A stretch of 64,000 nucleotides of DNA from Parasphingorhabdus sp. (GCA_039978835.1 JBDWAQ010000005.1:586631-650630); one strand, 5' to 3'. Counted from the stretch's first letter, positions 18,091 through 54,970 are shown. Program-made: numbers and translations. The notes: a model not told the origin generated them from the sequence alone.

Positions 18091-18104
18091 CAGACAAGGA
18101 GAAG

Positions 18105-18392: not shown

Positions 18393-18406
18393 TCAGGAGA
18401 GCAATC

Positions 18407-24961: not shown

Positions 24962-25317
24962 TCAGGCATCACCAGTTCGCGGCCAATGCGGGCTTCGACG
25001 CGCATATATTTCCATAAGCGATAGTCACTCACTTCGGTGGTGCGAAACAGGTTACAGGCTTCTACAACGGTTTCACGCGTGTCGACATGGGCCAATATGT
25101 AAAAGGTCCATGGAAAACCGGTTGGCGATGTGCCGACCATGGTTTCATCATCATCCATCGTGCCAATCACTTCGACACCAGGGATCTCGCGCATGATACG
25201 GAGCATTTTTCCGGTCGCTTTCAAAACGTCCATGATATCTGCGGAGGGCAGATCAAAAAACGATTGCAGTACTGCACCGCAAAAGAGCACACGTAGTTTT
25301 TCAGGTTGGTCATTCAT
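24958..25317 (-). CDS. iacB: IacB-family protein
   Basis: 119 aa, LRVLFC...FFD...DDDETMVG...FPWTFYIL...LWKY..VEARIGR, directly after iacA. Confidence 0.78.
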   Translation of the reverse strand: MNDQPEKLRVLFCGAVLQSFFDLPSADIMDVLKATGKMLRIMREIPGVEVIGTMDDDETMVGTSPTGFPWTFYILAHVDTRETVVEACNLFRTTEVSDYRLWKYMRVEARIGRELVMPE

Positions 25318-25348
25318 CAGTCGATCCTTTGTCTGTTATGCTGTTCGC

Positions 25349-26494: not shown

Positions 26495-26507
26495 ATTCTC
26501 TCTCTCC

Positions 26508-27641: not shown

Positions 27642-27770
27642 TGGCTCCCAATATTTCAATGGCCCTGTACGGCCATTCAACAGAAGCAACATAAACCATC
27701 ACAGCACTATCGGGACATGAGTTCTACTTATGCGGTTGCCTGAATCTATTTTGTTCCAGGCTGGGAAAAA

Positions 27771-29108: not shown

Positions 29109-29109
29109 A

Positions 29110-32322: not shown

Positions 32323-32748
32323 AGAATCTGGTTCCTCAATGCTACTTATACCCGCAGTGCCGGGTTCGGCATTTTCCTTGTTGCGGACCATATTGTCGAC
32401 TGAAACCAACTGACAATCAAATACTGCTCATTGGATATATCAGCGCAGGTAATGACCCAACCAGTTTCGTAAAATTGAACTCGATACAGCCGAGAACTCT
32501 GCAAATCAGTCTGTTTGGAGTGCATGAGTAATATTGTTGTCAATCCCATGAGGACAGGTAATGCAGAGTGCAAATTTATCTAGATTGTGGTTTCGATGCC
32601 TCCATTCGTAAATTGCAGGCAATGACTGATGCGGCGTTTTCGGCATCTTATCCAAGTTTAGGCCGGGGCAACAAAAGCATCAGTCAGCAAACCAGTTTGG
32701 AATTGTCGGTGCGGTCGGAGAACCGTATTGGCGCTTAGGGAGGTTAAT

Positions 32749-35247: not shown

Positions 35248-35384
35248 TCCAACACCAATGGCGATGAGCGTCTCCATTTAAACGTCTTGCGTGATGATCG
35301 CATGAAGGAATTCTCATCCCGGGAATCGTTCATGCGGTCATTGCGATATAAAGCGCCCGCGACATGGAGTTTTGGGAGAGTGAA

Positions 35385-36980: not shown

Positions 36981-36999
36981 TAGCATCGCAGAGCCTTCC

Positions 37000-38133
37000 T
37001 CAACCCAATAGCTTGAACATTCCCAGACCGAAGAAATTCCCTATGGCATAGCCCAGCATGCCGGTTGCGATGGCGGGTGTGACAAGGTTTTTCCATCCTT
37101 TGGCTGAAGCAATACCAGCAGCCGGTGCTGCTCCGACAATATTGGCACCCGACCCGATGATGGTTTCCGCCAGGTCGAATTTGAAAATCTTCGCGACCAG
37201 TAACATCAACCCGATATGACCAAAAATTATGATCAGTCCGTAGAGAAAGAATATGGGCGCCTTGGTAACGAAAGTGATCGCATCCGTGCTGGCCCCGATG
37301 GCGGCGAAAAACAGATACATGCCAAACATTCCAAACTCGAAATCACCCTTCAACTTGTTAAGAGATGCGGAGAATATGTTCGCTAACAGCACGGCGATGA
37401 TTGTGATGAGAAACAAGAGATAGTTACCAAGATCGAAATAGTCGGTAATCATCTCGCTAACGACGCAAATAATTGCGCTCAGAGCCAAAGCCCCGGCAAC
37501 ATGCGTCAGCTTAAACGACACATGTTCAGCCTGCATCGACGGCATGTTTTTGTCTTCAGCCTGCTCATCCATAATTTTGGATGAAAAGTGCCGGCGAATG
37601 AAAGGTATCTGAGGTAGAATCGCGAGAGTGCTAAGACCAATAATACTCACTGGCGCACTGGCGCTTACCACTACAGAAAATTCTGATGGTGACATCTGGG
37701 TAAGCTCTGACAGGGCAACGAGATTTACCATGCCGCCGACCCACGCTGCGGTGTAGGTCGCAGCTACTTTTGGTCCCAGTTCACCGAGATCGAGAATATA
37801 ATAGCCGAGTAGTGCAGCAATAAAAACGGCCACTGATCCGATGAGGAATATCGGTAATACCATGCCACTTTCCTTGAGGATTTTGGTGAGCGTGGCTTTG
37901 TACAGAAGGAGGGGGACTGCAAGCGGCAGAATATACCCAAATATCACGCCATACAGATCGGACTCAAAAGGAAGAATTCCGGTGTTTGATAAGGCCACTC
38001 CCAATATCAGTATCCACACAACTCCGGGAATTTTGCAAGCGATCGGATGGGTTTCGGACCAGAATCCAAACCAGACCAGGCTCAGGAGCACAGCCAATTG
38101 AAGAAAATAGTCTTCCGCACCAATTAGTGTCAT
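37000..38133 (-). CDS. DUF819-like multi-pass membrane protein
   Basis: About 11 TM segments; GG.VN, SGANIVGA and GMLGYAIGN motifs. Confidence 0.7.
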   Translation of the reverse strand: MTLIGAEDYFLQLAVLLSLVWFGFWSETHPIACKIPGVVWILILGVALSNTGILPFESDLYGVIFGYILPLAVPLLLYKATLTKILKESGMVLPIFLIGSVAVFIAALLGYYILDLGELGPKVAATYTAAWVGGMVNLVALSELTQMSPSEFSVVVSASAPVSIIGLSTLAILPQIPFIRRHFSSKIMDEQAEDKNMPSMQAEHVSFKLTHVAGALALSAIICVVSEMITDYFDLGNYLLFLITIIAVLLANIFSASLNKLKGDFEFGMFGMYLFFAAIGASTDAITFVTKAPIFFLYGLIIIFGHIGLMLLVAKIFKFDLAETIIGSGANIVGAAPAAGIASAKGWKNLVTPAIATGMLGYAIGNFFGLGMFKLLG

Positions 38134-38157
38134 TTTCCGTCCTCCCCAACGTCGCTT

Positions 38158-38892
38158 CTACGACTTCAACCACCCGTTGCCGGTGATTTTTCTTACAATT
38201 GATTCTGCTCTAACACCTCTATCGAGATCAAGTTGATCCGACACAAACTGACCCGTATTGCCAAGTGGATATCGCATTTCGGGCCCGGGCTGTTCCACAA
38301 TGTCGGCAATTTGACGGGCCACCGTGTCCGGATCATCGCCGGTTTCATTCCCTGCAAAGCCCGTTGCTATCGCACCGGGTTCAATCACAAGTACGCGAAT
38401 GGCGCGCGGGGCCAGTTCGGCGGCGAGGCTCTGGCTCATACCTTCTAGCGCAAATTTGCTTGCAGCATAGGCTCCGTCGCGCGGAAGTCCGACCAGACCC
38501 GACAGTGATGAAATCATAACGATCGTACCGCCATCTGGCATGTAAGGCAGAGCCGCCTTGGTAAGGCGCCAGACACCAAGCAGATTCACATCCAGAATAT
38601 GTTTGAAATCATCTTGTTCCAGATCCTCCAACCGACCATCCATATGTATCCCGGCATTGTTGATAAGGATATCCAGAGCGCCTTCGGCGGCACTATTACC
38701 GCATGCGTTAGCAGTGGATTCGAGATCACGAACATTTAGTGAGACCGGAGAGATTGTCCCGTTCGAGCTATGATCAAATTGCGGTTTGTTGGAATAATAG
38801 CCTGCGTGAACGTGATCGCCGCGCTGTGCGAATTCCTGGGCCAGCGCCCGCCCCAGGCCGCGTGATGCGCCACTAATCAATATATTCGCGAT
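38158..38892 (-). CDS. Short-chain dehydrogenase/reductase with an apparent ATC start codon
   Basis: SGASRGLG, NNAG and YAASKFALEG motifs. GGGAG, 8 nt, then ATC GCG AAT ATA TTG ATT gives (M)ANILISG. Confidence 0.8.
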   Translation of the reverse strand: MANILISGASRGLGRALAQEFAQRGDHVHAGYYSNKPQFDHSSNGTISPVSLNVRDLESTANACGNSAAEGALDILINNAGIHMDGRLEDLEQDDFKHILDVNLLGVWRLTKAALPYMPDGGTIVMISSLSGLVGLPRDGAYAASKFALEGMSQSLAAELAPRAIRVLVIEPGAIATGFAGNETGDDPDTVARQIADIVEQPGPEMRYPLGNTGQFVSDQLDLDRGVRAESIVRKITGNGWLKS

Positions 38893-39080: not shown

Positions 39081-40655
39081 ATGGCGGATTTTGATGTCGT
39101 GGTTGCCGGCGGCGGCGTAAATGGCCTTGCCTGTGCAGCGACGCTTTCCCGCAAGGGATTGAAAGTCTGTGTGGTGGAGCGCAATCCGTGGGTCGGTGGC
39201 GGCGCCGTTACGCAGGAAGTAACGCTCCCCGGATTCAAGCATGATCTTTACGGATCATCGCATGTCTGGATTCAGTGTAACCCCGACTTCAAGGAAATTC
39301 AGCCTGACCTTGAACGGCTTGGTTTGAAATATCTGGAACCCGATGATCATATCACCGGTCATCCCGACAAAAATGGTGGGCCAGGCATTGTTATCTACAA
39401 GTCCATCGACAAGACCTGCGAATCCATCGCCGCCTATTCAGAGGCCGATGCCGCGCGATACAAATCAGTCTATGCGGATTTCGAACAGGTTCGGGAAGGC
39501 TTTATCAAAGCCTTTTTCTCGCCTCCCGCGGCACCGTCCGCGCTATCCAGTGCGCTGGAAACCAGCGAGGCGGGGCTTCGCCGACTGCGGGAGTTTTCCA
39601 TGTCGGCGCGTGCCTGGGTAGAATCGAATTTTGAAAATGATTTTGTCAAAGCAGTCATGCTCAATTGGGCACTGGCTCCGCAGATACTGCCGGATCAGGA
39701 GGGTGCAGGCCAATCCTTCTACATCATGATCCCCGCTATCCACTATTACGGACAGGCTATTCCCGAAGGCGGCAGCATGGAATTGCCAATCGCCATGGCG
39801 AAGCTGGTGGAGGAGCAGGGCGGAAAAGTGATGACTGAAGCTCCGATCGACAAGATTATCGTCGAAGATGGTCAGGCGAAAGGTGTGCGGTTGGAAAGCG
39901 GCGAAACGATCATGGCGAGCCGTGCCGTTGTCTCGGCGCTGGAACCCAAACAGATGTTCCACAAATTTATCGGCGAAGAGCATTTTGAGCCGGAATTCAA
40001 CGATATGGTGAAAAGCTATTCTTTCGGCAAGATCAGCATCTGTCGTGCACAGCTAGCACTCAGCGAAGCGCCTGAGTTCACCAACGGCGCGGATATGAGC
40101 AAATGTCCGTTCCACCGGATCGTGGATTCGATGGATCAGATGATCAACTTCTATGCCGAACTGGCTACCGGCAAGCCGCCCAGTGATCCCTTTCTCTGGT
40201 CGGCTTGCTGGACCAAGCTGGATCCCACGCGTGCACCCGAGGGACAACATACGTTGATCTTTGACACTTATGTTTCGAACTGGCTTGCGGATGGACGGAC
40301 GTGGGACGAGATCGGCGAGGAATATACCAAGACGGTCTTGCTGCCAAAGCTTCAGGAATATGCGCCCAATATCAATGAGAAAACTATATTGGGAATGCAC
40401 ATTCAACACAGACACACACTCGAGGATGCCAATCCCAGCTTTGTCGACGGAACGACAAATGGCGGGGAACGGATTGCCGCACAATTGGGAAGTTTCCGGC
40501 CTTTCCCCGGATATGCCCATTACCGCTCACCGATCAAGGATTTGTACATGACCGGGCCGCATTGCCATCCGGGCGGCGGAATTTCGGCAATGGGAACGAT
40601 TACGGCACGCGTGATGCTTGACGATATGGGAATTGAACCTGCGGACTTCTGGTAG
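39081..40655 (+). CDS. FAD-dependent oxidoreductase, phytoene dehydrogenase-like
   Basis: VVVAGGGVNGL...VERNPWVGG, PEGGS and C-terminal DLYMTGPHCHPGGGI motifs. Confidence 0.85.
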   Translation: MADFDVVVAGGGVNGLACAATLSRKGLKVCVVERNPWVGGGAVTQEVTLPGFKHDLYGSSHVWIQCNPDFKEIQPDLERLGLKYLEPDDHITGHPDKNGGPGIVIYKSIDKTCESIAAYSEADAARYKSVYADFEQVREGFIKAFFSPPAAPSALSSALETSEAGLRRLREFSMSARAWVESNFENDFVKAVMLNWALAPQILPDQEGAGQSFYIMIPAIHYYGQAIPEGGSMELPIAMAKLVEEQGGKVMTEAPIDKIIVEDGQAKGVRLESGETIMASRAVVSALEPKQMFHKFIGEEHFEPEFNDMVKSYSFGKISICRAQLALSEAPEFTNGADMSKCPFHRIVDSMDQMINFYAELATGKPPSDPFLWSACWTKLDPTRAPEGQHTLIFDTYVSNWLADGRTWDEIGEEYTKTVLLPKLQEYAPNINEKTILGMHIQHRHTLEDANPSFVDGTTNGGERIAAQLGSFRPFPGYAHYRSPIKDLYMTGPHCHPGGGISAMGTITARVMLDDMGIEPADFW

Positions 40656-40679
40656 GCCGCACTGAAAGAGGAAACAAAG

Positions 40680-41834
40680 ATGACAGCACCGAAGATTGAC
40701 AAATATACCGCATTGATAATGCAACCTCATGTTGTGGTTGCTGATGATCGTGACGGGATTAAACAAAACCTCGATCGCGCAATGAACATGATCGATTTTG
40801 GCGTCGGGTACTTTTGGGAATTGCCATCGCGTCTGGTCGTTTTTCCGGAATATTTCATGCAGGGTGTGACAACGCCTGGCAAAGGTGAGCATGGCATTGA
40901 CAGCTTCATGAAGAAGGCCATTACAATTGACGGTCCGGAAATGCAGGCGCTTGGTGAAAAGGCCAAGGAATATAATCTCTACATTGCTGGTGGCGGGGTC
41001 ATTGAAAAGGTACCGGAATTTCCGGATCGCTGGTTCAATACCGCATTCATTATCGGGCCATCCGGGGACGTTGTTCTAAAATATCACAAATGGCATATTC
41101 CGGCTTCCATTGGCCTTGGTACCAGCCCGCACGATATTTTTGACGAGTATAAAGAGGTCTTCGGTGGCGATATCAGGGACCTGTTCCCGGTTATCGATAC
41201 CGACATTGGTAAGCTGGGCACCATGACCTGTCACGATGGCTGCACACCCGAAGTATCGCGGGCGCTGGGTTACAATGGCGCTGAAGTCATCTGCCATCCG
41301 GTGGCACTGCAAGAAGTCGAAGGCGTTTCCGAGCCTTGGGATTTCTGGATGTTCACACGCCGCACACGCGCGCATGATAATATGGCTTATGTGCTGGGAT
41401 CCAACTGGGGAACGGTGGATTATGATTTTTACCCCAAAGCTTTTTGCCCCGGCAACAGCTTTGCGATTGATTATCAAGGCATGGTGATGCGTCATTCGCC
41501 CTATCCGCAGGAACAGGTAATGGGTGTCACCATCGATATCGAAGGTTTGCGTGAGCATCGTTCGCGCTGCAATCACAATACATGGGTGGACGTGCGGACC
41601 GAAGGCTTCCGTCAGATTTACGAGAATCCGATTTATCCGGCCAATCAATTTCCGAGCGGAAAGCCGCCGCGGACATTGGCCGATAAAATGGATCCCGTTA
41701 AGGAAGTGTTCCGTGACATTTATGGCCGCGGGCAGTTTACTCCCCCAGCCGGCAAGACCGTCGACGACATGGCCAATCAGCATGCAGAACGTGTGAAACG
41801 GGCGCAGGATATTGGTACGTTGAAACGCGACTAA
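40680..41834 (+). CDS. Nitrilase-superfamily C-N hydrolase, formamidase-like
   Basis: Triad FPEYF (E), YHK (K), TCHDG (C). The CHDG context resembles AmiF-type formamidases. Confidence 0.8.
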   Translation: MTAPKIDKYTALIMQPHVVVADDRDGIKQNLDRAMNMIDFGVGYFWELPSRLVVFPEYFMQGVTTPGKGEHGIDSFMKKAITIDGPEMQALGEKAKEYNLYIAGGGVIEKVPEFPDRWFNTAFIIGPSGDVVLKYHKWHIPASIGLGTSPHDIFDEYKEVFGGDIRDLFPVIDTDIGKLGTMTCHDGCTPEVSRALGYNGAEVICHPVALQEVEGVSEPWDFWMFTRRTRAHDNMAYVLGSNWGTVDYDFYPKAFCPGNSFAIDYQGMVMRHSPYPQEQVMGVTIDIEGLREHRSRCNHNTWVDVRTEGFRQIYENPIYPANQFPSGKPPRTLADKMDPVKEVFRDIYGRGQFTPPAGKTVDDMANQHAERVKRAQDIGTLKRD

Positions 41835-41847: not shown

Positions 41848-42138
41848 ATGCGTGTAGTCAGTTCTCTTGCTGATATTGATTTTAGCATAGGCCGTATCGT
41901 CCGTCGCGGCGGCAATATGGTCATTGAAAGCAGTGCGGACAGCACGCTGGAAACAATTGTGACCGTTACCCCGCGAGATGCTTTGAAGTCTCTGGTGGCA
42001 TTGGCCGTCAGCCCGTCGGCGTGGATATTTGTCTTAACGCTGCCCTTTGCTCTGCTTGTAAGGGGGAATGGATCAACCGCTTCCGATGATGATTGGGAGG
42101 AGCGGCGGTCACGCATAGGTTTGAACAAGCCGTGGTAG
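41848..42138 (+). CDS. Small hypothetical protein with one hydrophobic segment
   Basis: 96 aa, RBS AAGGAAGG, co-oriented within the operon; overlaps the eda start by 7 nt. Confidence 0.6.
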   Translation: MRVVSSLADIDFSIGRIVRRGGNMVIESSADSTLETIVTVTPRDALKSLVALAVSPSAWIFVLTLPFALLVRGNGSTASDDDWEERRSRIGLNKPW

Positions 42139-42767
42139 AACCGGGTGCTTTCGATCGAATTGCACAGGATCGCATTGTTCCGGTGGTCATTCCCGGTGAA
42201 CCCATACAGATGGAGGGACTTGTTGAAGCGCTTTTTCTGGGAGGGCTGGGAACGATAGAAATCACCCTGCGTTCCGAAACTGCAATTGATGCCATTTCCA
42301 TTGCGGCAAAACAAAATAATCTGATTGTTGGCGCGGGAACCGTCTTGAGCGTTGAGCAGGCGGAAAATGCGGTTGGAGCCGGAGCAAGATTTCTGGTTAG
42401 CCCGGGCTTCGATCCGGCAGTTGTTGGCTGGGCAAAGCGCAATGATGTACCGATAATTCCTGGAATTGCGACAGTTAGCGAAGCGATGCGTGCGATCGGT
42501 TCGGGCCTGCATTTTGTGAAATTGTTCCCGGCTGAGCAACTGGGCGGTGCGAAAACGGTACAAGCCATGGGTGCCGTGCTCCCGGACCTTAAAATCATGC
42601 CAACTGGTGGTGTTACGCTGAAAAACCTGACGGATTATCTTTCTGTGCCAGCAGTTGGAGCCGTCGGTGGAACCTGGATCGCGCCAGCTGATGATATTGT
42701 GAATGGCCATTTTGCCAAAATCACCGAACGAGCGAAAGCCGCCGTGGCTTTGTCACTTTCCCTATAA
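42132..42767 (+). CDS. eda: KDPG/KHG aldolase
   Basis: IEITLRS, VGAGTVL, FLVSPG, VKLFPA and MPTGGV motifs. GTG start at 42132. Confidence 0.9.
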   Translation: MVEPGAFDRIAQDRIVPVVIPGEPIQMEGLVEALFLGGLGTIEITLRSETAIDAISIAAKQNNLIVGAGTVLSVEQAENAVGAGARFLVSPGFDPAVVGWAKRNDVPIIPGIATVSEAMRAIGSGLHFVKLFPAEQLGGAKTVQAMGAVLPDLKIMPTGGVTLKNLTDYLSVPAVGAVGGTWIAPADDIVNGHFAKITERAKAAVALSLSL

Positions 42768-43774
42768 TGTCCGTTTCACGATCAATTATCTGTTTCGGTG
42801 AAATGCTACTCAGACTTTCTGCCTCGGAAACTGATCAGGAGTTGATAAGCTCATCACATTATTCCTCTCGCGTTGCCGGTGCGGAAGCAAATGTCGCTAT
42901 CTCCCTGGCTTCGTTAGGACTGCAATCCCGTATGGCAACGATCCTTCCTGACAATATGCTGGGTGATCGCGCTTTGAAGACCTTGTCGGATCACGGCGTT
43001 AACACCGGACCGGTCGTTCGCAAGCCGGGCCGAATGGGACTGTTTTTCCTGAACTCGCAAATCGCTGGCCGGGAAGGGGGCTTGATTTACGACCGGGAGG
43101 GTTCGGCATTTGCCTCGGCTGCTCCTGACGAGATCGATTGGACGAAAGCATTATCGAATGCGACATGGCTACATATCTCCGGTATTACCGCCGCTTTGGG
43201 AGAGGGTCCTTTACAAGCACTGCATAATGCCTGCACCGCTGCCAAAGATGCTGGCGTCAAAATCTCTTTTGATTGCAACTATCGGCCATTGCTCTGGCAA
43301 TACAGGGAACAGGAGGCGCCAGCAATCTTGGCGGCATTGGCACAGCATGCAGATCTACTCTTTGCCGGGCCTTGGGATGTATCACTTATGACTGGTACGC
43401 CACAGAGTGAAGAAAAAGCGTTGGATGCGTTTGAGAGTTCTGCGGAAGCGGCCTTTCGAGAATTCCCCAATCTGGCTATGATTGCAGCCACTTCACGAAC
43501 CATCGTCGGAAGCGAACATCATCAACTTGGTGCGCATATCGGCACACGATCGGGAGCAGTTCACGAGCCTCCGCAAACAATAAACCCGGTAATTGATCGT
43601 ATAGGCAGTGGTGATGCTTTCGCTGCGGCGGTGCTTTATGGTGTCACGCATGATTGGGATGCTACACGGATCGCGAGATTTGCCCTGCAGGCTTGTGTCA
43701 TGAAACACGCAATTCATGGTGATTTTAGCAATCTGAATGCAAGGGAAGTCGAAGCAGCATTGTCAGCTGAGTAA
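42767..43774 (+). CDS. kdgK: 2-keto-3-deoxygluconate kinase (PfkB family)
   Basis: FGEMLLRLS, AGAEANVA, SFDCNYRPLLW and DRIGSGDAFAA motifs. Confidence 0.85.
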   Translation: MSVSRSIICFGEMLLRLSASETDQELISSSHYSSRVAGAEANVAISLASLGLQSRMATILPDNMLGDRALKTLSDHGVNTGPVVRKPGRMGLFFLNSQIAGREGGLIYDREGSAFASAAPDEIDWTKALSNATWLHISGITAALGEGPLQALHNACTAAKDAGVKISFDCNYRPLLWQYREQEAPAILAALAQHADLLFAGPWDVSLMTGTPQSEEKALDAFESSAEAAFREFPNLAMIAATSRTIVGSEHHQLGAHIGTRSGAVHEPPQTINPVIDRIGSGDAFAAAVLYGVTHDWDATRIARFALQACVMKHAIHGDFSNLNAREVEAALSAE

Positions 43775-43776
43775 AT

Positions 43777-45048
43777 TTAACTGGATTCTGCCTCTTGATC
43801 TTCCAGCTTTAGTCCCCCCGCAATCATGGTGGCTATTGCTGCAAACCCGGCAAGCGTAAACAGCACACCCTGTTCGCCAAACGGTTCGATCAATGGACCA
43901 AGCATGGCCGCACCGAACACTAGCGCGATATTCCCGCAGACCATTGTGAAAGAGAATTGGGTCGCGGCGATCATCTTCCAGCATTGCCTCATGGTGGCTG
44001 CAAAAAACGCGATGAAAATGAACACCAGCAGCATTTCAAAAGCAGCAAGATAAAGCCCGCCGAGTTGAAACCGAAGTGCCATTGCCATTGCAAAATTAAC
44101 GGCCATAAGTGTTGCAAAAAGTGTGACCAGTGATCGTCGATGTCCCAGGTAATCCACCAGCACTCCGCCGGCAAATATACCGGCAACACCGGCAACAAGT
44201 TTGAGGCTGGATCGAAACTGGGAATAGTCGGTTTCGTTCCAGTGAAATTCCTGCACCAGCAATACGGGCAGCAAGGCACCTGACAATCCGGCGATCAATC
44301 CTATGCAGATCGAAATTCCAATCAAACGCATCGCAGACGGACGGCGGATGGCAGCAAATAACTGGGCCAGCAGTATCTTCCAGCTGGAAGTCTGTCTTGC
44401 TGCGGTTTCGGCGCTAGTCGCGCCAGCAGTCCAGGGCAGAAAGCGCTCACCTGACCGTTCTTTCACAGCAAGAACAAATATTAGCACCACAAGCAATATT
44501 GCAGCGGCAAAATAGGCCATGGCTTCAAATCCGGCAAAGGCGAGTATTGCCGCGCCGCTGGCTCCGGCAGCAGCGGTGCCAAGGGTTTTGCTGCCCCACA
44601 TGATCCCATTGGCGCGGCCCTGCTCATGAGACGGCACAACATCCATCACCATTCCGTCAGTCGCAACGTCCTGAAACACCGTCGCCAATGTGATGCAAAA
44701 GGCACCAATAGCGAACAGACTGAGGTTATCCGCTGGTTCACCAATGGAGGCGAGAAACAGAAAACTGATGGCTATTCCGAACTGGCCAAAAATTACCCAG
44801 GGTCGCCGTCGCCCCATCGGTAGATAGGCCACGCGATCAATGAGCGGTCCGACAAATAATTTTGCCGAGTTTGGCAACATTGCAGTCGCCAGAAAAGTTC
44901 CGATAGCAGCTGCTGTCATCCCATTTGCGGCCAGATAGGCCGGAAAGATGATCAACACCATTGCATCGGGAATACCCTGTGCCGCGTAAAGTGTTGCAAA
45001 TGCGGAATACCGCAGCCATTTATTCTGACTGAGATCGAATTCCGTCAT
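43777..45048 (-). CDS. MFS transporter (AmpG-like)
   Basis: 12 TM segments; LYAAQGIP, GRRRPW and QDVATDG motifs. Confidence 0.8.
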   Translation of the reverse strand: MTEFDLSQNKWLRYSAFATLYAAQGIPDAMVLIIFPAYLAANGMTAAAIGTFLATAMLPNSAKLFVGPLIDRVAYLPMGRRRPWVIFGQFGIAISFLFLASIGEPADNLSLFAIGAFCITLATVFQDVATDGMVMDVVPSHEQGRANGIMWGSKTLGTAAAGASGAAILAFAGFEAMAYFAAAILLVVLIFVLAVKERSGERFLPWTAGATSAETAARQTSSWKILLAQLFAAIRRPSAMRLIGISICIGLIAGLSGALLPVLLVQEFHWNETDYSQFRSSLKLVAGVAGIFAGGVLVDYLGHRRSLVTLFATLMAVNFAMAMALRFQLGGLYLAAFEMLLVFIFIAFFAATMRQCWKMIAATQFSFTMVCGNIALVFGAAMLGPLIEPFGEQGVLFTLAGFAAIATMIAGGLKLEDQEAESS

Positions 45049-45075
45049 CCTACAATGTTGTGGAGCGGTTGAACA

Positions 45076-46284
45076 TCACCAGTGCCAAAGCGTTCCGTCT
45101 TCCAGGCGGTTTACCGGCAAATAGGCGGGTTTGTAGGGATATTTCGCAGCGAGCTCTTCATCGATATCGACGCCATGGCCCGAAGTATCTCCCGGGAAGA
45201 GCGCTCCGTCCTTGAAGCTGTAACTATGGGGGAAGACCGCATCGGTTTCTTCGGTGTGACGCATGTATTCCTGAATACCGAAATTGGGCACCCAGATATC
45301 GAAGTTCAGAGCTGCTCCCATGCATACCGGCGACAGATCGGTTGCGCCGTGGCAGCCGGTCCGGATCTGATACATGGCCGCAAGATCGGCAATGCGCCGC
45401 AAATGGGTTATCCCGCCAGCATGGACGACCGTCGCGCGGATATAATCGATCAACTGATTCTGGATGAGATCTTTGCAATCCCAGATTGTGTTGAATATCT
45501 CACCGACAGCAAGCGGTGTCACCGTATGTTGCCGGATCAGGCGAAAGGCCTCCTGATTTTCTGCGGGCGTGGCATCTTCCATCCAGAATAGTCTGTAAGG
45601 TTCGAGCGATTTTCCCAATCTGCCAGCTTCAATCGGGGTCAGCCGGTGGTGCACATCGTGCAGAAAATGAGGTTCGAAACCAAAGCGTTCACGCAGATGC
45701 TCAAAAAGCTTTGGCGTGTGATCAAGATATTTTTCTGTCGACCAGACGTTTTCCGACGGTAGTTCGGCATCAGCAGGCTCGTAATACATCTTGTCCTGTG
45801 ACACGCCGTATGTAGACGCCAATCCCGGAATACCAGTTTGCGCCCGAATGGCTTTATAGCCCATCTCGATATATCGAGAGACTTCATCCGAAGTTTCTTC
45901 AATGTCGCGTCCATTGGCATGGCCGTATACCATCACCGATTCCCGGCTTTTTCCTCCCAACAACTGGTAAAGGGGCATCCCGGCGGCTTTGGCTTTGATG
46001 TCCCACAATGCCGTATCAACGGCGGCTATGGCGGCCATCGTGATCGGCCCGCGACGCCAATAGGCTCCGCGATACAGATAGTGCCAGATATCCTCAATTC
46101 GACTCGCATCCTTACCAATCAAACAGGGGATTACATGATCATCAAGATAGGACACAACCGATAGCTCGCGCCCGTTGACGGTAGCATCCCCGAGTCCGTA
46201 GATTCCCTCGTCTGTTTCGATTTTCAGCGTAACAAAATTGCGCCCAGGACAGGTGACGATCGTTTTTGCGGATATGATTTTCAT
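45076..46284 (-). CDS. manD: D-mannonate dehydratase (RspA/ManD family)
   Basis: [36 protein letters not shown] and [12 protein letters not shown] motifs. Confidence 0.92.
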
Positions 46285-46398
46285 AATGTGTACCATCTCA
46301 GTAACAGGCTGTGACTCAATTGACTAAAGCAACCGGGGGTCGCTTTACAAACTGGGGTTAGTCATTCAAAAGATTAGCCTAACTTATGTGGTAGAAAA

Positions 46399-47316
46399 AT
46401 GACCCGCCGCTTACCTCCTCTTTTGGCTTTGCGTGTCTTCGAATGCGCCGGTCGACATCTCAGCTTCACCAAAGCTGCCGAGGAGCTATGTGTAACACAG
46501 GCTGCAGTTAGCCATCAGATAAGAGCCCTCGAAACATGGTTTGGAAAACCGTTGTTCAAGCGCCTCAACCGATCATTGAAATTGACCGTCGAGGGTGAAC
46601 GGATGCTGGGTCCGATGACTGAAGCGCTGGATATAATGGCTACGGCAACATCTGAAATCGCGCAGGATGACGATAGTCAGGTTTTGAATGTCTCTGTGCT
46701 GGATTCGTTTGCCAGTGTCTGGATATTGCCGCGGTTGCAGAGTTTTCATCAGCGCTTTCCTGATATTGATGTCCGCTTTGACTCGTCGCCGGTCGAAGAA
46801 GATAGTTTGGGCAGCGGTCATTCGGATCTGGAAATCCGTTATGGCAATGGTACTTGGCCAGGGCTGCATGTCTACAAGTTCATGGATGAGGAAATTTTCC
46901 CCGTTTGCAGTCCGAAATTGCTGGAAGGACGGGATTGCCCGACCAGTCTTGACGAGTTGGAGGAGTTTGAGTTGCTCCACGATGTCATGTCGATCGACTG
47001 GGAACTGTTCCTGAAGAATTTTGGTGTGAAAGCAATGAACGTCCGGCGCGGTTTCGGGTTCAACCATTCCCAACTTGTCGTTCAGGCCTGTATTGAAGGG
47101 AATGGATTTGCGCTGGGCCGCGGTGCTTTGGTTGCCGACGCGATAAAAACAGGCAAACTGGTAAGGCCGTTTAAGGAATCAATGCCGGCAGGACTGGCCT
47201 ATTACGTTGTTTGCCGGCCCGGAGACTCTGACGATGCTGCGATCAAGGCATTTTCCTATTGGTTGATGGATGAAATAGAGGCAGAAAATGCGTTGGAAAC
47301 TAAAGACGCATCATGA
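46399..47316 (+). CDS. LysR-family regulator, GcvA-like
   Basis: LPPLLALRVFECAGRHLSFTKAAEELCVTQAAVSHQIR HTH plus effector domain. Confidence 0.92.
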   Translation: MTRRLPPLLALRVFECAGRHLSFTKAAEELCVTQAAVSHQIRALETWFGKPLFKRLNRSLKLTVEGERMLGPMTEALDIMATATSEIAQDDDSQVLNVSVLDSFASVWILPRLQSFHQRFPDIDVRFDSSPVEEDSLGSGHSDLEIRYGNGTWPGLHVYKFMDEEIFPVCSPKLLEGRDCPTSLDELEEFELLHDVMSIDWELFLKNFGVKAMNVRRGFGFNHSQLVVQACIEGNGFALGRGALVADAIKTGKLVRPFKESMPAGLAYYVVCRPGDSDDAAIKAFSYWLMDEIEAENALETKDAS

Positions 47317-48775
47317 CCGATCGTGTTTCGGTAAACGCTTTTAACCCCTGAAGACCGTGCTCCCGTCCGATGCCGGATTGCTTAACACCGCCTATCGGCA
47401 TGGCCAGCTCCGGGATTCCATGATCGTTGATCCAGATTATACCTGATTCAATATCCGCCGAGAGGCGCAGTGCACGGGACAGATCCTTGGTCCAGATGCT
47501 GGCGGCCAGACCATATTTGCTATCGTTGGCAAGCCGCAAAGCATCGGCCTCGTCATCAAAGGGTGTTATTGTCACAACCGGCCCAAAGACTTCCTCTTGC
47601 ACGACGGCGCAGCTTTGCTCCGCCCCGGTCAACACTGTTGGCGCATAGAAAAATCCGGCGCCGTCCAGTATTTTTCCGCCTGTCACGATGCTGGCACCAT
47701 CAGCTGCTGCTTGTTCGACCATCGCATGAACACCGTTTCGGTGATTGCTGCTGATTAGCGGACCCATAGTGGTGTTGGGGTCAACCCCTGGTCCAACCTG
47801 ATGACCCTCCGCAATGGCAGTGATGCCGGAGACAATTTTATCAAAGATACCGCGCTGCGCATAAATGCGCGAGCCAGCCACACAGACTTGCCCGGCATTT
47901 CCAAAAATCGCGTCGGCAGCGGTCGGGATGGCGATGTCGAGGTCGGCATCATCGAAGATCAATACCGGCGACTTGCCGCCGAGTTCCAGCGATAGCCGGG
48001 TGATATCGTCTTTGCTATCCGCCAGCAGTTGTTTGCCAACGCTGGTTGATCCGGTGAACGAGACTTTCGACACCAGCGGATGTTTAACCAGAGCTGCGCC
48101 AACATCCCGCCCTTTTCCGGGCAAGACGTTGACAACGCCGTCCGGAACGCCCGCTTCCATTAGCAACCGGCCCAGGTAAAGCGACGACAAAGGTGTCAAT
48201 TCCGCTGGTTTTAAAATACAGCTGCAACCCGCCGCCAGAGCAGGGGCTAGTTTCCAAGCGGCCGATACCAGCGCGCCGTTCCATGGTGTAATCAACGCCG
48301 CAACTCCAACCGCGTCCTCCCGGACAAAGGCGTGATATTCGCGACCGGGTACAGAGGGTTCAAAAACCTGTCCACCCAGCTTCGTGACCCATCCGGCATA
48401 ATATCGAAACGTCTCCGCACAATGCGGAATTTCGCCATGAAGCGCACCTCCATAGGGCTTGCCGCCATTTATGGTCTCAAGCTCCGCCAATATTTGGGCA
48501 TCACGTTCAATCAGATCGGCCACACGCAACAAAATCCGCTGTCGTTCCGCCGGGGTTTTTCCGCGCCAGCGTTTGTCGACGAATGCGCGGCGCGCGGCAA
48601 TCGCGGCACGATCGGCATCGACTGCCGTGGCCAGCGCCGCGCTGCCGATCTCTGTCCCGGTGGCGGGATCAAGACACGGGATAACAGACGCGCTGTCTCC
48701 CATCTCCCATTTTCCATCAATCAGGAAGGGCTGTGTTTCGTTTAGGAAAGACGTCGCGGCGGAAATGCTGTGCAT
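47300..48775 (-). CDS. Aldehyde dehydrogenase, aryl-acetaldehyde dehydrogenase-like
   Basis: TPWNG, KPAELTP, FTGST, LELGGKSP, GQVC and EEVFGPV motifs. Confidence 0.88.
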   Translation of the reverse strand: MHSISAATSFLNETQPFLIDGKWEMGDSASVIPCLDPATGTEIGSAALATAVDADRAAIAARRAFVDKRWRGKTPAERQRILLRVADLIERDAQILAELETINGGKPYGGALHGEIPHCAETFRYYAGWVTKLGGQVFEPSVPGREYHAFVREDAVGVAALITPWNGALVSAAWKLAPALAAGCSCILKPAELTPLSSLYLGRLLMEAGVPDGVVNVLPGKGRDVGAALVKHPLVSKVSFTGSTSVGKQLLADSKDDITRLSLELGGKSPVLIFDDADLDIAIPTAADAIFGNAGQVCVAGSRIYAQRGIFDKIVSGITAIAEGHQVGPGVDPNTTMGPLISSNHRNGVHAMVEQAAADGASIVTGGKILDGAGFFYAPTVLTGAEQSCAVVQEEVFGPVVTITPFDDEADALRLANDSKYGLAASIWTKDLSRALRLSADIESGIIWINDHGIPELAMPIGGVKQSGIGREHGLQGLKAFTETRSVMMRL

Positions 48776-48792
48776 GATATTCCTCTATCCGC

Positions 48793-49920
48793 TTAGCTTG
48801 CCATAAATTCACGCAGTACCGCAATGACGCGATCATTTTGCTCGGGAAGGCCGACCGTGATGCGTAGGCAATTCTCCGGACCACCGGCATTGACCGGGCG
48901 TGGAATTATGCCATTGGCCTCCAGATAGGCGCCCGCACCAGCAGGCGTTTTTGCATCGCTGGTAAATTTCAGTAGATAGAAATTCGCCACCGACGGGATG
49001 AACTCTATGCCCATTTCGGTTGTTGCAGCCGCAATGCGTTCCAATTCCCTATTGTTCATATTGCGCATCTGCTTGGCATAATCCTGATCCAGTACCGCGG
49101 CTTCCGCAGCGGCCAGAGCGGCGGCATTGGCGTTAAACGGTGTGCGGATGCGTTGCACCGCGTCAATGATCGCGCTGGGCGCATACATCCAGCCGATCCG
49201 CAGAGCTGCAAGGCCGTAGAGTTTGGAAAAAGTTCGGGTCATCACCGTGTTTTCACCTGCCGATACCAGCGCTGAACCGTCCTCATAGTCGTCATTTTCG
49301 ACATAATCGGCATAGGCGGAATCACACAGTAAGATGATGTGAGGCGGCAGACCATCGCGCAGGCGCTGCAACTCGCTGCGAGAAATATATTGCCCCACCG
49401 GATTATTGGGGGAGGCGAGTACTACCATTTTGGTTTTGTCCGTTACTTTTGCCAACATGGCATCGGTATCCGGTTTCAGATCATCCTCTGGTGCGGTAAC
49501 GGGCGTCGCGCCCTGGGCGATGGCATGAACATAGGCCATGCCAAAACTATATTGGCTGACGACCACCTCATCGCCCGGAGACAGATAGGCTCGCATCAAC
49601 AACTGAATCAGTTCATCGGATCCATTGCCACAGACAATGTTATCAGGGTCGATATCAAAAGTGCTGCCAATAGCGGAACGTAAGGCAAATTGGCTTCCAT
49701 CCGGATAACAGCTCAAGCCATTGTCGTCGGTAAAAGCAGCATAAGCGGCCTTGGCCTTCGGGCTGGGCCCGGACATGGATTCATTGGAAGAGAGTTTGAG
49801 CGGTTTTTCTACCCCTTCGATCGCGCCTTTCCCCTGTACATAGGGAGATAGGCTCAGGACGCCGGTTGTCGGTTGGGGCGTATTGCTGTCCGATATGATG
49901 TTGAGATTATTTGTGGCCAT
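48793..49920 (-). CDS. HisC-family (class I/II) PLP aminotransferase
   Basis: LKLSSNE, GNGSDELI, SPNNPVG, DSAY and RTFSKLYGLAALRIGW (PLP Lys) motifs. Confidence 0.88.
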   Translation of the reverse strand: MATNNLNIISDSNTPQPTTGVLSLSPYVQGKGAIEGVEKPLKLSSNESMSGPSPKAKAAYAAFTDDNGLSCYPDGSQFALRSAIGSTFDIDPDNIVCGNGSDELIQLLMRAYLSPGDEVVVSQYSFGMAYVHAIAQGATPVTAPEDDLKPDTDAMLAKVTDKTKMVVLASPNNPVGQYISRSELQRLRDGLPPHIILLCDSAYADYVENDDYEDGSALVSAGENTVMTRTFSKLYGLAALRIGWMYAPSAIIDAVQRIRTPFNANAAALAAAEAAVLDQDYAKQMRNMNNRELERIAAATTEMGIEFIPSVANFYLLKFTSDAKTPAGAGAYLEANGIIPRPVNAGGPENCLRITVGLPEQNDRVIAVLREFMAS

Positions 49921-49923
49921 CGA

Positions 49924-51570
49924 CTAACCCCTTTTGCAACCATCTTCAAACACCGGCTCGCGTATGATGAATGGCCAAGGTGTTGCCATATCCTCTGTCG
50001 GGACCTCTATCAAGCAAGGTTCGCGCCGTTCGAGAGCAGCTTTTACGGCTCTCTCCAACGCTTCAGGTGAGGTTACGCGCTCGGCTCTTATACCAAAGCT
50101 ATCTGCATATTTGATAAAATCAGGATTATGCAGGTCAGAAGCGATCAATCTTCCATCAAACCACTCCTTTTGCTGACGCTGAACATTCTGGAACTTATTA
50201 TTGTTGAACAGCACAGTGACGAGCGGCAGGTTGTAAGCTGCTGCCGTTGCCATTTCATTGGCGGTAAACATGAAACCGCCGTCACCAACGATATTCACAA
50301 CAGCTTTGTCGGGATGAGCAGCCTGCACACCCAATGCCGTGGCATAACCATAGCCCAATGTCCCTTGATAACCGCAGCTAACGTGGTGGCGTGGTTCATA
50401 TACCGGGAATGCATACCAAGAGGCATAACCGGCCTGCGTGATTTCATCCACGAAAAACCCATCATCAGGTAGGGCGCGGCGGATGGCATCGAGAAAACCG
50501 ACCTGCGGTTGAACTTGTTCCTCAATCTGACGACGCAGATTGGCTTTAACACCAGTGAGCTCCTCTTCACGCGATGCTTTCGGCTCGCTGATCTTCTCGA
50601 GCGCTGCGAGCAGGGCAGGGACTGCATCTGCGGCGTCGGCATGGATCGAAACTTCGGGGACGTCGATACGGTCGAGTTCCTCCTCGTCAATATCAATGCG
50701 GATGATCTTCATATCCGGGCCGATACCCCAATAGAGATATTGTTGCTCCATCCGGGTACCCAGGCCAATAATAACATCGGCCTGTTTCCACATATCATTT
50801 CCGGCTGGGAACATTTGCGACAGATAGCCGCGATCACTAATCACGCCGCGTCCGCTGCGGAAACTGACCACCGGTGCTTGCAGGAAAGTTGCGAGTTGCT
50901 CCAATGCGGGACCAGCTGCAACTGCGCCGCCACCGGCAATGATCATGGGTTTTTTCGCACCTGCCAAGAGTTTTGCCGCGCGGTCAATGGCATCGGTATC
51001 CAGTGCTGGCCCAGCCGGTATATCGGCGGCGGGTAAAAGCGACACATCGACTTTCTCTGCCATGATATCCATCGGCATTTCCAGACTGATCGGACGTGGG
51101 CGTCCGCCGCACATGTAATTAAACGCTTCATTTACCAATCCCGGAGCCTCTTGCGGTGTCATCGCACGGTCCGCCCATTTGGTCAGGCTGCGCATGGTCG
51201 CCAATTGATCGGGCAGTTCGTGCAGATAGCCGATGCCCTTTCCAAGGCCGACAGTCGGAATTTGACCGGTCAGGCAAAATACCGGCGCGTTGGTGGCATA
51301 GGCCGAACAGATCGCGGCTGTGCTGTTCAATACGCCAGGACCCGGGACAACCGCATATACGCCTGGCTTGCCGGTGGAGCGGGCATAGCCAAATGCCATA
51401 TAGGCAGCGCCCTGTTCGTGCCGTGTACAATAAGTCGTGATCGTATCACCGGCATTATACATCGCATCAAAAAAGTAATCTAGCTGTCCACCGGGAAGAC
51501 CAAATACCGTATCTACACCGTTAGCCATAATTTGACCCAATATTGCTTCGGCACCTGTCATTTCAGTCAT
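49924..51570 (-). CDS. ThDP-dependent enzyme (acetolactate synthase-like / 2-oxoacid decarboxylase)
   Basis: FGLPGGQ, RHEQGAAYMA, VPGPG and GDGGFMF...NN ThDP-binding motif. Confidence 0.88.
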   Translation of the reverse strand: MTEMTGAEAILGQIMANGVDTVFGLPGGQLDYFFDAMYNAGDTITTYCTRHEQGAAYMAFGYARSTGKPGVYAVVPGPGVLNSTAAICSAYATNAPVFCLTGQIPTVGLGKGIGYLHELPDQLATMRSLTKWADRAMTPQEAPGLVNEAFNYMCGGRPRPISLEMPMDIMAEKVDVSLLPAADIPAGPALDTDAIDRAAKLLAGAKKPMIIAGGGAVAAGPALEQLATFLQAPVVSFRSGRGVISDRGYLSQMFPAGNDMWKQADVIIGLGTRMEQQYLYWGIGPDMKIIRIDIDEEELDRIDVPEVSIHADAADAVPALLAALEKISEPKASREEELTGVKANLRRQIEEQVQPQVGFLDAIRRALPDDGFFVDEITQAGYASWYAFPVYEPRHHVSCGYQGTLGYGYATALGVQAAHPDKAVVNIVGDGGFMFTANEMATAAAYNLPLVTVLFNNNKFQNVQRQQKEWFDGRLIASDLHNPDFIKYADSFGIRAERVTSPEALERAVKAALERREPCLIEVPTEDMATPWPFIIREPVFEDGCKRG

Positions 51571-52207
51571 TGGGTTCTAGCTTCTTTCTCATTTGCAGCA
51601 TTTAGCTGCTTGTTGCAAATTGTTGAACTCAAAGCGGACACTTTCCCACTTCAGAGCGCTATGTTCGAGAAGAAGCCCGATAAGCACAATTGAATCAATC
51701 TAACGCTATCGGATTAGCTGACCTAATCACTGACTGTAAAATCGAGAATATCGCTTTTGTCGTCAGCTGAGTTACTGACAACTGTCGCTGTTTTATGATG
51801 GGGAAAGCGCAGCGTGCCTGCAGACACTTGCGGCAGAGGTAGCAGTGAAAGAACCTGGTCTGCCAACGTTGTCCACCAGCAAGGCGTTTAACTATGCCCC
51901 AGCCTAAAGGCACTGCGGATTACAACAGGCACTAAGGGCCGCATGTGGCCCTATCCTGATCTTCTGCCGACGCCGGAGGCATCGGCTCAACCCAAACCGG
52001 TCAGTCATTGGCAATTGGAGTGATCTAGCGGTTGGTTCGATTTCAGAGTGTGCATGAGTGGAAAGCGGACAATAAGCGGACGTCGATGTTGCCAGTTTAA
52101 GGTTGCTATTGCTATTTCATTTAGAGGAACACCATAATAGGCTCGGAACGCGAGTTCTTTTCCTGCTTCGAACCTCGGAAACGAATGCAAATTCGTTTGT
52201 AGTATGC

Positions 52208-54969: not shown

Positions 54970-54970
54970 G

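What the first reader, a model, noticed from the sequence alone, without database searches (positions are those of the whole stretch)
47300..51570. Ehrlich-type operon that could feed tryptophan into the island's IAA pathway
Seen: a tightly packed minus-strand operon of a ThDP enzyme, a HisC-family aminotransferase and an aldehyde dehydrogenase. Established: transamination, 2-oxoacid decarboxylation and aldehyde oxidation is the indole-3-pyruvate route from Trp to IAA, and the analogous route for Phe, Tyr and Arg. HisC paralogs often accept aromatic amino acids. Inference: with iac and cat on the same island this would form a full Trp to IAA to catechol to 3-oxoadipate route, or let the cell both make and destroy auxin. 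The substrate cannot be read from sequence.
Basis: inference. Interest (0 to 1): 0.6.

Follow-up and report, generated by a model that had tools for sequence, protein, structure and literature searches.

The report
Tryptophan-to-auxin side-chain operon in glyco-tryptophan cluster
The three-gene operon is real and most likely shortens a tryptophan side chain to the auxin IAA, but as one arm of a larger, widely conserved and undescribed gene block that also yields a sugar acid, so its substrate is probably a sugar-linked tryptophan rather than free tryptophan.

Summary
Observation confirmed. ThDP enzyme (49924-51570), HisC-family aminotransferase (48793-49920) and aldehyde dehydrogenase (47300-48775) form a tight minus-strand operon with intact catalytic motifs.

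In a 300-genome sample of the same order, all 10 genomes with a close ThDP orthologue also carry an IAA-degradation system, against 24 of the other 290. That system is iac in some genomes and the unrelated iad (IadD/E-type) in others. It often lies directly beside the triad.

The decarboxylase is not an IpdC/PDC enzyme. It belongs to an uncharacterised acetolactate-synthase-like subfamily (PRK08266).

The triad is not a free-standing module. Close ThDP orthologues and the CN hydrolase were found together in 9 genomes of the sample and apart in 3, all fragmented assemblies. The block also holds an FAD oxidoreductase, ManD/KDG kinase/KDPG aldolase, a LysR regulator and a TonB receptor. A conserved operator (CTAAT-N16-19-…TTG) occurs only twice in the window, upstream of the ThDP operon and of ManD.

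Best reading: side-chain module for a hexose-linked tryptophan, possibly C-mannosyl-tryptophan, giving IAA plus an aldonate. An earlier scan agent proposed this substrate for the adjacent region of the same genome (e1-5191829). The substrate remains untested.

The parts
49924..51570 (-). ThDP-dependent enzyme, AHAS-like subfamily PRK08266; proposed (glycosyl-)indole-3-pyruvate decarboxylase
   Evidence: Pfam TPP_enzyme_N/M/C. NCBIfam PRK08266 788.9 bits against cut-off 571. AruI model 399 against 500. IpdC/PPDC model 56+45 bits against 554.5. HEQGA and GDG..NN motifs present.
48793..49920 (-). HisC-family PLP aminotransferase, paralogue of the housekeeping HisC; proposed (glycosyl-)tryptophan transaminase
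   Evidence: PF00155. TIGR01141 273.9 bits against cut-off 276.55. The true hisC is elsewhere (G000:C13, 298 bits) and is 40% identical. The best PDB relatives are a Listeria HisC (3ffh) and the M. tuberculosis putative phenylalanine aminotransferase 4r2n, which tie. TFSK lysine motif present.
47300..48775 (-). NAD(P)-dependent aldehyde dehydrogenase; proposed (glycosyl-)indole-3-acetaldehyde dehydrogenase
   Evidence: PF00171 538 bits. The best NCBIfam model is phenylacetaldehyde DH StyD, 540 bits against 850. The best PDB hit is 4o5h, phenylacetaldehyde dehydrogenase, 461 bits. Glu264 and Cys298 motifs present.
51687..51717 (-). Conserved operator CTAAT-N19-TCAATTG, 147 nt upstream of the ThDP start codon
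   Evidence: One of only two matches to the motif in the 64-kb window on both strands. The same motif lies 90-160 nt upstream of ThDP in 15 of 22 block loci, against a background of 0.0077 per 250 nt.
46348..46377 (-). Second copy of the operator, 81 nt upstream of ManD in the LysR-ManD divergent region
   Evidence: Conserved upstream of ManD in G017, G067, G096, G002, L005 and L006.
46399..47316 (+). GcvA-type LysR regulator. Its 3' end overlaps the ALDH 3' end by 17 nt. Probable regulator of the block.
   Evidence: PF00126 and PF03466. NF008352 GcvA subfamily 342.7 bits against 288. It lies next to ManD and the triad in 12 or more genomes, in varied arrangements.
42093..46296 (.). Sugar-acid module: KDPG aldolase 42093-42767 (+), PfkB/KDG kinase 42767-43774 (+), MFS transporter 43777-45048 (-), ManD-family dehydratase 45076-46296 (-)
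   Evidence: Conserved with the triad.
39081..41834 (+). FAD oxidoreductase (CrtO/amine-oxidase-like) 39081-40655 and CN hydrolase 40680-41834; proposed sugar-releasing pair
   Evidence: The CN hydrolase is 72-86% identical across classes. In the 300-genome sample it was found with close ThDP orthologues in 9 genomes and apart from them in 3.
27771..38880 (.). Uptake and processing genes found with the block in several genomes: dipeptidase-like amidohydrolase, tricorn-like peptidase, TonB-dependent receptor 32728-35247, sulfatase, DUF819 membrane protein, SDR
   Evidence: Co-located with the block in G103, G100, G017, G067 and G096.
16918..27692 (.). cat genes and the iac IAA-degradation cluster, the proposed sink for the triad's product
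   Evidence: An iac cluster abuts the same block in the unrelated Kordiimonas genome G103.

Best explanation
The ThDP-aminotransferase-ALDH operon is the amino-acid side-chain arm of a conserved, LysR-controlled catabolic block for a hexose-conjugated tryptophan. The aminotransferase turns the alpha-amino acid into the 2-oxo acid (an indole-3-pyruvate). The AHAS-like ThDP enzyme decarboxylates it to the aldehyde. The ALDH oxidises that to an indole-3-acetate.

The adjacent FAD oxidoreductase and CN hydrolase would detach the sugar as an aldonate (mannonate or gluconate). ManD, KDG kinase and KDPG aldolase then burn the aldonate. The resulting IAA is degraded by whichever auxin pathway the genome has: iac here, iad elsewhere.

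Shown: gene content, intact motifs, conserved linkage, the shared operator, and co-occurrence and adjacency with iac/iad. Inferred: the reaction chemistry, the identity of the substrate (C-mannosyl-Trp is the leading candidate, N-glycosyl-Trp another), and whether the triad acts before or after deglycosylation.
For: 1. Three enzyme classes sit in one tight operon with intact catalytic motifs.

2. In a 300-genome order sample, 10/10 genomes with a close ThDP orthologue (58% identity or more; 4 families, 6 genera) have IadD-like or iacA, against 24/290 of the rest (Fisher p about 1e-10, though kin are not independent). Distant ThDP paralogues show no enrichment (5/32).

3. Two non-homologous IAA pathways alternate beside the triad.
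- iac: the window, G103, and 5/5 Sphingomonadaceae relatives.
- iad-like: co-directional with the triad in G096 as iadF-iadG-SDR-IadD-IadE-ThDP-AT-ALDH. It is also adjacent in G100, L018, L020, L025 and L014, and about 10 kb away in Aliiroseovarius.
- The Rieske alpha subunit of G100 scores 456-459 bits against Variovorax IadD structures 7YLS/8H2T/9O71, with the next hit at 158.
- The iad pathway removes an acetate side chain through CoA ligase and thiolase (PMC12633357). That is the side chain an Ehrlich-type triad would create.

4. In the sample, close ThDP orthologues and the CN hydrolase were found together in 9 genomes and apart in 3, all fragmented assemblies (G075, G015, G034).

5. A shared operator lies upstream of ThDP, ManD, FADox and the TonB receptor across families. 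It occurs only twice in this window, at exactly the ThDP and ManD promoters.

6. The ALDH's nearest characterised relatives are arylacetaldehyde dehydrogenases. The aminotransferase's best PDB relatives include an aromatic aminotransferase.

7. Bacterial growth on C-Man-Trp is documented but its genes and mechanism are unknown (PMC8433626, PMC12990085, PMC13066745).
Against: - No enzyme assay exists and no substrate can be read from sequence.
- The ThDP enzyme's nearest named relative is 2-ketoarginine decarboxylase AruI, which acts on a cationic substrate rather than an aromatic one.
- Neither iacA nor the IadD-like Rieske gene was found in three block-bearing genomes outside the order sample (G306, G309, G312), although G309 keeps iadF/iadG/SDR-like genes beside the triad (L018). 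In the order sample, G015 (810 contigs), which holds the CN hydrolase and a 54%-identical ThDP homologue, also showed neither.
- The block lacks the known C-glycoside machinery (GMC glycoside 3-oxidase and the Mn-dependent C-C lyase). C-C cleavage would therefore need new chemistry, whereas an N-glycosyl substrate would suit a CN hydrolase better.
- Sulfatase and peptidases are present in only some genomes.
- ManD-family enzymes also act on gluconate, so 'mannose' is not established.
- Sphingomonadaceae co-occurrence may reflect one mobile island lineage rather than independent events.
Confidence: 0.5

Rival explanations
1. Plain Ehrlich/IPyA route. The triad converts free L-tryptophan to IAA, which iac then degrades. 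The sugar-acid, FAD and CN-hydrolase genes are merely neighbours.
For: The enzyme logic fits, and the triad is linked to iac/iad. If deglycosylation came first, the triad would indeed see free Trp.
Against: Close ThDP orthologues and the CN hydrolase were found together in 9 sample genomes and apart only in 3 fragmented assemblies. The ThDP promoter shares its operator with ManD, FADox and the TonB receptor. The linked gene set is kept through many rearrangements and across three proteobacterial classes.
Confidence: 0.15
2. Same three-step chemistry on a different amino acid. One candidate is a glycated or otherwise modified basic amino acid, as in the AruH-AruI-KauB arginine transaminase pathway. 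Another is Phe/Tyr giving arylacetates. The nearby iac/iad-like genes would then act on that product or be unrelated.
For: AruI is the best named model for the ThDP enzyme (399 bits). KauB is among the ALDH's PDB relatives (354 bits). The ALDH's best named matches are phenylacetaldehyde dehydrogenase entries, the StyD models and PDB 4o5h.
Against: The AruI score is below that model's cut-off. No guanidinobutyrase or paa/hpa genes are in the block. Two unrelated IAA-specific systems alternate next to the triad, and the G100 Rieske enzyme is a close IadD homologue.
Confidence: 0.15
3. Not an Ehrlich pathway. The HisC-like enzyme transaminates an amino sugar or amino polyol, as HisC does with histidinol phosphate. 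The AHAS-like enzyme acts as a carboligase, lyase or hydrolase on a sugar-derived keto compound (IolD- or Xsc-like). The ALDH oxidises a sugar-derived aldehyde that feeds ManD.
For: AHAS-like ThDP enzymes have many non-decarboxylase chemistries (PDB list). The triad is co-regulated with sugar-acid genes.
Against: This reading does not explain the alternating iac/iad adjacency and co-occurrence. IolD and Xsc models score far below PRK08266 and AruI.
Confidence: 0.1
4. Auxin production module. The block makes IAA from a tryptophan source in order to influence a plant or algal host. iac/iad, where present, only tune the level.
For: In three block-bearing genomes outside the order sample (G306, G309, G312) neither iacA nor the IadD-like oxygenase gene was found, so IAA could be an end product there.
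Against: Most block-bearing genomes carry a complete IAA sink right beside the triad. The TonB receptor, peptidases and the ED-type sugar-acid module point to nutrition rather than signalling.
Confidence: 0.07

Closest known systems
Indole-3-pyruvate (IPyA) pathway of bacterial IAA synthesis: aromatic aminotransferase, IpdC, and an indole-3-acetaldehyde dehydrogenase such as AldA (own knowledge)
   Same: The same three reaction types in the same order, and the same predicted product class (indole-3-acetate).
   Different: The decarboxylase is not a PDC/IpdC-family enzyme but an AHAS-like PRK08266 member. The genes form one operon inside a catabolic block with sugar-acid genes. The product appears destined for degradation rather than secretion.
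Arginine transaminase pathway of Pseudomonas aeruginosa (AruH, AruI, KauB)
   Same: A catabolic Ehrlich-type sequence that uses an AHAS-like ThDP decarboxylase. AruI is the closest named family to this ThDP enzyme.
   Different: The AruI model score is below its cut-off (399 against 500). The aminotransferase is HisC-family, not AruH-type. There is no guanidinobutyrase. The context is iac/iad and ManD rather than arginine genes.
iac (Pseudomonas putida 1290 type) and iad (Variovorax/Bradyrhizobium type) IAA catabolic clusters (PMC9613470, PMC10374108, PMC12633357)
   Same: These are the downstream partners, physically adjacent in many genomes. The G100 Rieske subunit is a close IadD homologue.
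   Different: Described iac and iad loci take up free IAA. I found no report of an upstream Trp-conjugate-to-IAA feeder module attached to them.
Two-step C-glycoside deglycosylation (GMC glycoside 3-oxidase or DgpA, then a C-C lyase; PMC10646112)
   Same: An oxidise-then-cleave logic is proposed for removing the sugar from the indole.
   Different: The block holds neither a GMC oxidase nor the sugar-isomerase-like lyase. It holds a CrtO/amine-oxidase-type flavoprotein and a CN hydrolase, and the predicted sugar product is an aldonate rather than a keto-sugar.

Membership tests
IpdC/PPDC (indolepyruvate/phenylpyruvate decarboxylase, TIGR03394) | Whole-protein score above the curated cut-off of 554.5 bits | tested here: not met
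   The window ThDP gene scores 56.5 and 44.8 bits in two pieces. No gene in the genome exceeds 129 bits.
NCBIfam PRK08266 (NF006122, unnamed ThDP subfamily) | Score above 571 bits over the full length | tested here: met
   788.9 bits, residues 1-539 aligned to model positions 1-540 of 543.
AruI, 5-guanidino-2-oxopentanoate decarboxylase (NF005712) | Score above 500 bits | tested here: not met
   399.3 bits.
ThDP-dependent enzymes (general) | Cofactor-activating Glu and the GDG-X(24-27)-NN diphosphate/Mg motif | tested here: met
   HEQGA at residue 51; GDGG...NNN at 429-458. Both are invariant in 12 orthologues.
HisC, histidinol-phosphate aminotransferase equivalog (TIGR01141) | Score above 276.55 bits and a role as the genome's his-pathway enzyme | tested here: not met
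   273.9 bits, just under the cut-off. A separate gene at G000:C13 scores 298.4 and is only 40% identical.
Class I/II PLP aminotransferases | Pfam PF00155 and the Schiff-base lysine motif | tested here: met
   188.5 bits; TFSK at 230-233.
StyD-type phenylacetaldehyde dehydrogenase (NF045735) | Score above 850 bits | tested here: not met
   539.8 bits. This is the best-scoring named model but well under its cut-off.
ALDH superfamily | Catalytic Cys and general-base Glu | tested here: met
   ELGGKSP (Glu264) and GQVC (Cys298).
Ehrlich-type catabolic pathway | Actual transamination, decarboxylation and oxidation of one substrate series | not testable with these tools
   Needs enzyme assays. Only gene content, operon structure and context are shown.
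   10/10 against 24/290 in the order sample. Adjacent to iac or iad in 14 or more genomes.

The most novel reading that the evidence does not exclude
The block is the missing bacterial pathway for C-mannosyl-tryptophan, the C-glycosylated amino acid released from animal thrombospondin-repeat proteins and excreted in urine. Glycopeptides would enter through the TonB receptor and be trimmed by the tricorn-like peptidase and dipeptidase. The triad would convert C-Man-Trp to C-Man-IAA. A CrtO-like flavoprotein and a CN hydrolase would then cut the indole-sugar C-C bond by a new oxidise-and-hydrolyse mechanism, giving IAA (to iac/iad) and mannonate (to ManD/KDGK/Eda). The ThDP enzyme would be the first AHAS-like indolepyruvate-type decarboxylase.
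Probability: 0.3. Interest if true: 0.85.

Novelty: new variant of a known kind. Interest (0 to 1): 0.68.

Why it matters
If correct, this gives a non-IpdC, acetolactate-synthase-like decarboxylase for the indole-3-pyruvate step. It also shows that bacterial auxin-degradation clusters of two unrelated types (iac and iad) are fed by a dedicated upstream module. IAA would then be a catabolic intermediate of a tryptophan conjugate as well as a plant signal.

It makes an open question directly testable. Reviews from 2021 to 2026 state that bacteria can grow on C-mannosyl-tryptophan but that the mechanism is unknown. This block offers named candidate genes in cultured strains: Rhizorhabdus wittichii RW1, Sphingomonas sp. 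ERG5, S. colocasiae and Aliiroseovarius conchicola.

Even if the sugar-conjugate idea fails, the link between the triad and IAA catabolism is a solid comparative result.

Tried and rejected
- Rfam scan of 46000-53200 at E<=1 found nothing.
- The sigma-70 and terminator scan of the operon region was at chance level and uninformative.
- Small ORFs in the 637-nt region upstream of ThDP show nothing convincing.
- My first operator regex was mis-specified and missed the ManD site. I redefined it after listing all CTAAT sites.
- Distant ThDP paralogues (44-46% identical; L103-L106) were checked for the same context and lack it. I therefore used 58% identity or more as the orthologue threshold.
- The idea that the convergent LysR gene regulates only ManD was set aside after the same operator turned up at the ThDP promoter.
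- I considered FADox plus CN hydrolase as an IAM-type second route from Trp to IAA. I judged it unlikely because the pair always accompanies the triad and sits in the sugar-acid operon.
- I considered indole glucosinolate breakdown (sulfatase plus a nitrilase-like enzyme). It leaves the aminotransferase and ThDP enzyme without a role, and the sulfatase is absent from many block copies.
- Hossain et al. 2018 (PMID 29335800) is not held.
The only sample record seen was the Logan run that carries P0001.
- No structure prediction or complex prediction was run. Neither would decide the substrate.


Full report
**1. Observation**

- 49924-51570 (-) has the three TPP_enzyme domains.
- 48793-49920 (-) is a class I/II aminotransferase.
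- 47300-48775 (-) is an ALDH.

The gaps are 3 and 17 nt. All catalytic signatures are intact: the ThDP Glu52 and GDG..NN motif, the PLP-lysine TFSK motif, and the ALDH Glu264/Cys298. iac (about 20.8-27.7 kb) and cat (16.9-20.8 kb) are present. Everything lies between two tRNA-Leu(CAA) genes at 9478 and 59045, in line with earlier island notes.

**2. What the enzymes are**

The ThDP enzyme is acetolactate-synthase-like.
- It passes the unnamed NCBIfam subfamily PRK08266 (789 bits against 571).
- It falls short of 2-ketoarginine decarboxylase AruI (399 against 500), which is its best named relative.
- It is not an IpdC/PPDC-family enzyme (56 and 45 bits against 554.5). The genome has no such enzyme.
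- Its best solved relatives are AHAS and glyoxylate carboligase at about 200-224 bits.

The aminotransferase sits just under the HisC equivalog cut-off (273.9 against 276.55). The real hisC is elsewhere (298 bits) and is 40% identical. Among solved structures, the M. tuberculosis putative phenylalanine aminotransferase ties with a HisC.

The ALDH's best named models and best structure are phenylacetaldehyde dehydrogenases, all below equivalog cut-offs.

**3. The triad is part of a larger conserved block**

I took orthologous loci from 26 genomes and six more from the window's GTDB order. They show the triad linked to the same gene set in shuffled orders:
- a GcvA-type LysR regulator;
- a ManD-family dehydratase, PfkB/KDG kinase and KDPG aldolase;
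- a CrtO/amine-oxidase-like FAD enzyme and a 384-aa CN hydrolase (72-86% identical across classes);
- a DUF819 membrane protein, an SDR and a TonB-dependent receptor;
- in some genomes, a sulfatase and a tricorn-like peptidase/dipeptidase pair.

In the window this block spans about 27.8-51.6 kb, so the '20 kb of unrelated genes' between iac and the triad is the rest of the block. Carriers include Sphingomonadaceae, Kordiimonas, Emcibacteraceae, Steroidobacteraceae, Lysobacterales and Aliiroseovarius.

In a 300-genome order sample, the CN hydrolase and close ThDP orthologues were found together in 9 genomes and apart in 3, all fragmented assemblies. None of 174 genomes of the window's own family in that sample has the ThDP gene, which fits island-borne acquisition.

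**4. One regulon**

I listed all CTAAT sites upstream of block genes. This revealed a bipartite motif, CTAAT-N16-19-[TCG][CA][AG][ATC]TTG.
- It occurs only twice in the whole window on both strands. A chance expectation of about 2 hits applies to the whole window, not to specific places.
- The two sites are 147 nt upstream of the ThDP start and 81 nt upstream of ManD.
- It lies upstream of ThDP in 15 of 22 block loci, against a background of 0.0077 per 250 nt.
- It recurs upstream of ManD, FADox and the TonB receptor in G017, G067, G096, G103 and G010.

CTAAT is the half-site known for GcvA-type regulators (own knowledge). The adjacent LysR is therefore the likely regulator. This ties the triad functionally to the sugar-acid genes.

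**5.

iacA is rare in the order sample (6/300). It is present in all five closest Sphingomonadaceae relatives, and in at least three of them it is on the same contig 20-30 kb from the triad. In the Kordiimonas MAG G103, a full iac cluster abuts the block.

Ten other block carriers lack iacA. However, in G100 the block abuts genes for an acyl-CoA ligase, a thiolase, an SDR, Rieske alpha and beta subunits and a quinone oxidoreductase.
- The Rieske alpha subunit scores 456-459 bits against PDB 7YLS/8H2T/9O71, with the next hit at 158.
- Those entries are Variovorax IadD/E, the IAA oxygenase of the iad pathway.
- The iad core also includes an acyl-CoA synthetase, a thiolase and a dehydrogenase (PMC12633357).

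IadD-like genes are present in 9 of the 10 order-sample genomes with close ThDP orthologues. The tenth has iac. The result is 10/10 against 24/290. Distant ThDP paralogues, which lack the block context, show no enrichment (5/32). Outside the order, 7 of 10 carriers have IadD-like genes.

Adjacency is striking.
- In G096 the string iadF-iadG-SDR-IadD-IadE-ThDP-AT-ALDH is co-directional.
- In L025, IadD sits next to the aminotransferase.
- L018, L020 and L014 have iad genes just upstream of ThDP.

Two unrelated auxin-degradation systems alternating beside the same triad is hard to explain unless the triad's product is an indole-3-acetate.

**6. Mechanism**

The most economical reading has four elements:
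- a hexose-conjugated tryptophan, possibly delivered as glycopeptide through the TonB receptor and peptidases;
- the triad shortens the alanyl side chain to acetate;
- FADox and the CN hydrolase release the sugar as an aldonate for ManD/KDGK/Eda;
- IAA goes to iac or iad.

The order of side-chain shortening and deglycosylation is open. Either way the triad produces the acetate side chain.

C-mannosyl-tryptophan is an attractive candidate. It is the known protein-borne Trp glycoside. Bacteria can grow on it, yet the mechanism is stated to be unknown in 2021-2026 reviews (PMC8433626, PMC12990085, PMC13066745). An earlier agent of this scan proposed the same substrate for the adjacent region (e1-5191829). 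I treated that as a lead and added the iad, operator and co-occurrence evidence independently.

Several points cut the other way:
- An N1-glycosyl-tryptophan would fit CN-hydrolase chemistry better.
- The block lacks the known C-glycoside enzymes (PMC10646112).
- ManD enzymes also take gluconate.
- Nothing here identifies the sugar.

**7. Verdict**

It needs three corrections.
- The decarboxylase family is not IpdC.
- The module is dedicated to a larger sugar-linked pathway.
- Free Trp is probably not the natural input.

I found no description of this block or of a PRK08266-type indolepyruvate decarboxylase in the searchable literature.

The genomes are related, so the Fisher p-values overstate the association. 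The spread over 6 genera, the use of two different IAA systems and the negative paralogue control mitigate this.

Noticed in passing
window 41835-42092 (between CN hydrolase and Eda); L102:19433-19723: A small conserved ORF of about 85-96 aa lies between the CN hydrolase and the KDPG aldolase. It is called as a gene in a 94%-identical relative. The sequence upstream of Eda looks coding in G017, G067, G010 and G002. It has no Pfam hit.
   Followed up: no
G002:C2:683148-694368 and G034 contigs: Genus g50 genomes carry a second, divergent copy of the ThDP gene (50% identical) and the CN hydrolase (68%) about 8 kb apart. This may be a paralogous block for a related substrate.
   Followed up: no
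L103-L106 (G058, G099, G118, G067 second copy): ThDP paralogues at 44-46% identity are common in family f8. They lack the block context and show no enrichment for iac/iad.
   Followed up: partly
window ~51590-51620 (minus strand): A nested palindrome, TTTGCAACAAGCAGCTAAATGCTGCAAA, lies 20-50 nt upstream of the ThDP start codon. It could be a second regulatory site or a 5'-UTR hairpin.
   Followed up: no
L102:1-9700 (Logan SRR8168141 contig): In the closest relative (ThDP 94% identical) the DNA upstream of ThDP is a TetR plus glyoxalase, FAD monooxygenase, FAA hydrolase and GST (gentisate-like) cluster instead of the AraC-hydroxyproline cluster. The ThDP start therefore marks the block boundary.
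   Followed up: partly
L099:9123 (G310): The block operator motif also lies in the divergent region between the IadD-like operon and Eda. This hints that iad genes join the same regulon in that genome.
   Followed up: no
window 52208-57700: A PAS-AraC regulator is divergent from a hydroxyproline catabolic operon (deaminase, epimerase, D-amino-acid dehydrogenase, semialdehyde dehydrogenase). Hydroxyproline and C-mannosyl-Trp are both animal-matrix-derived, but this cluster is not conserved next to the triad elsewhere.
   Followed up: partly
window 47300-47316: The ALDH and LysR genes converge and their 3' ends overlap by 17 nt.
   Followed up: no
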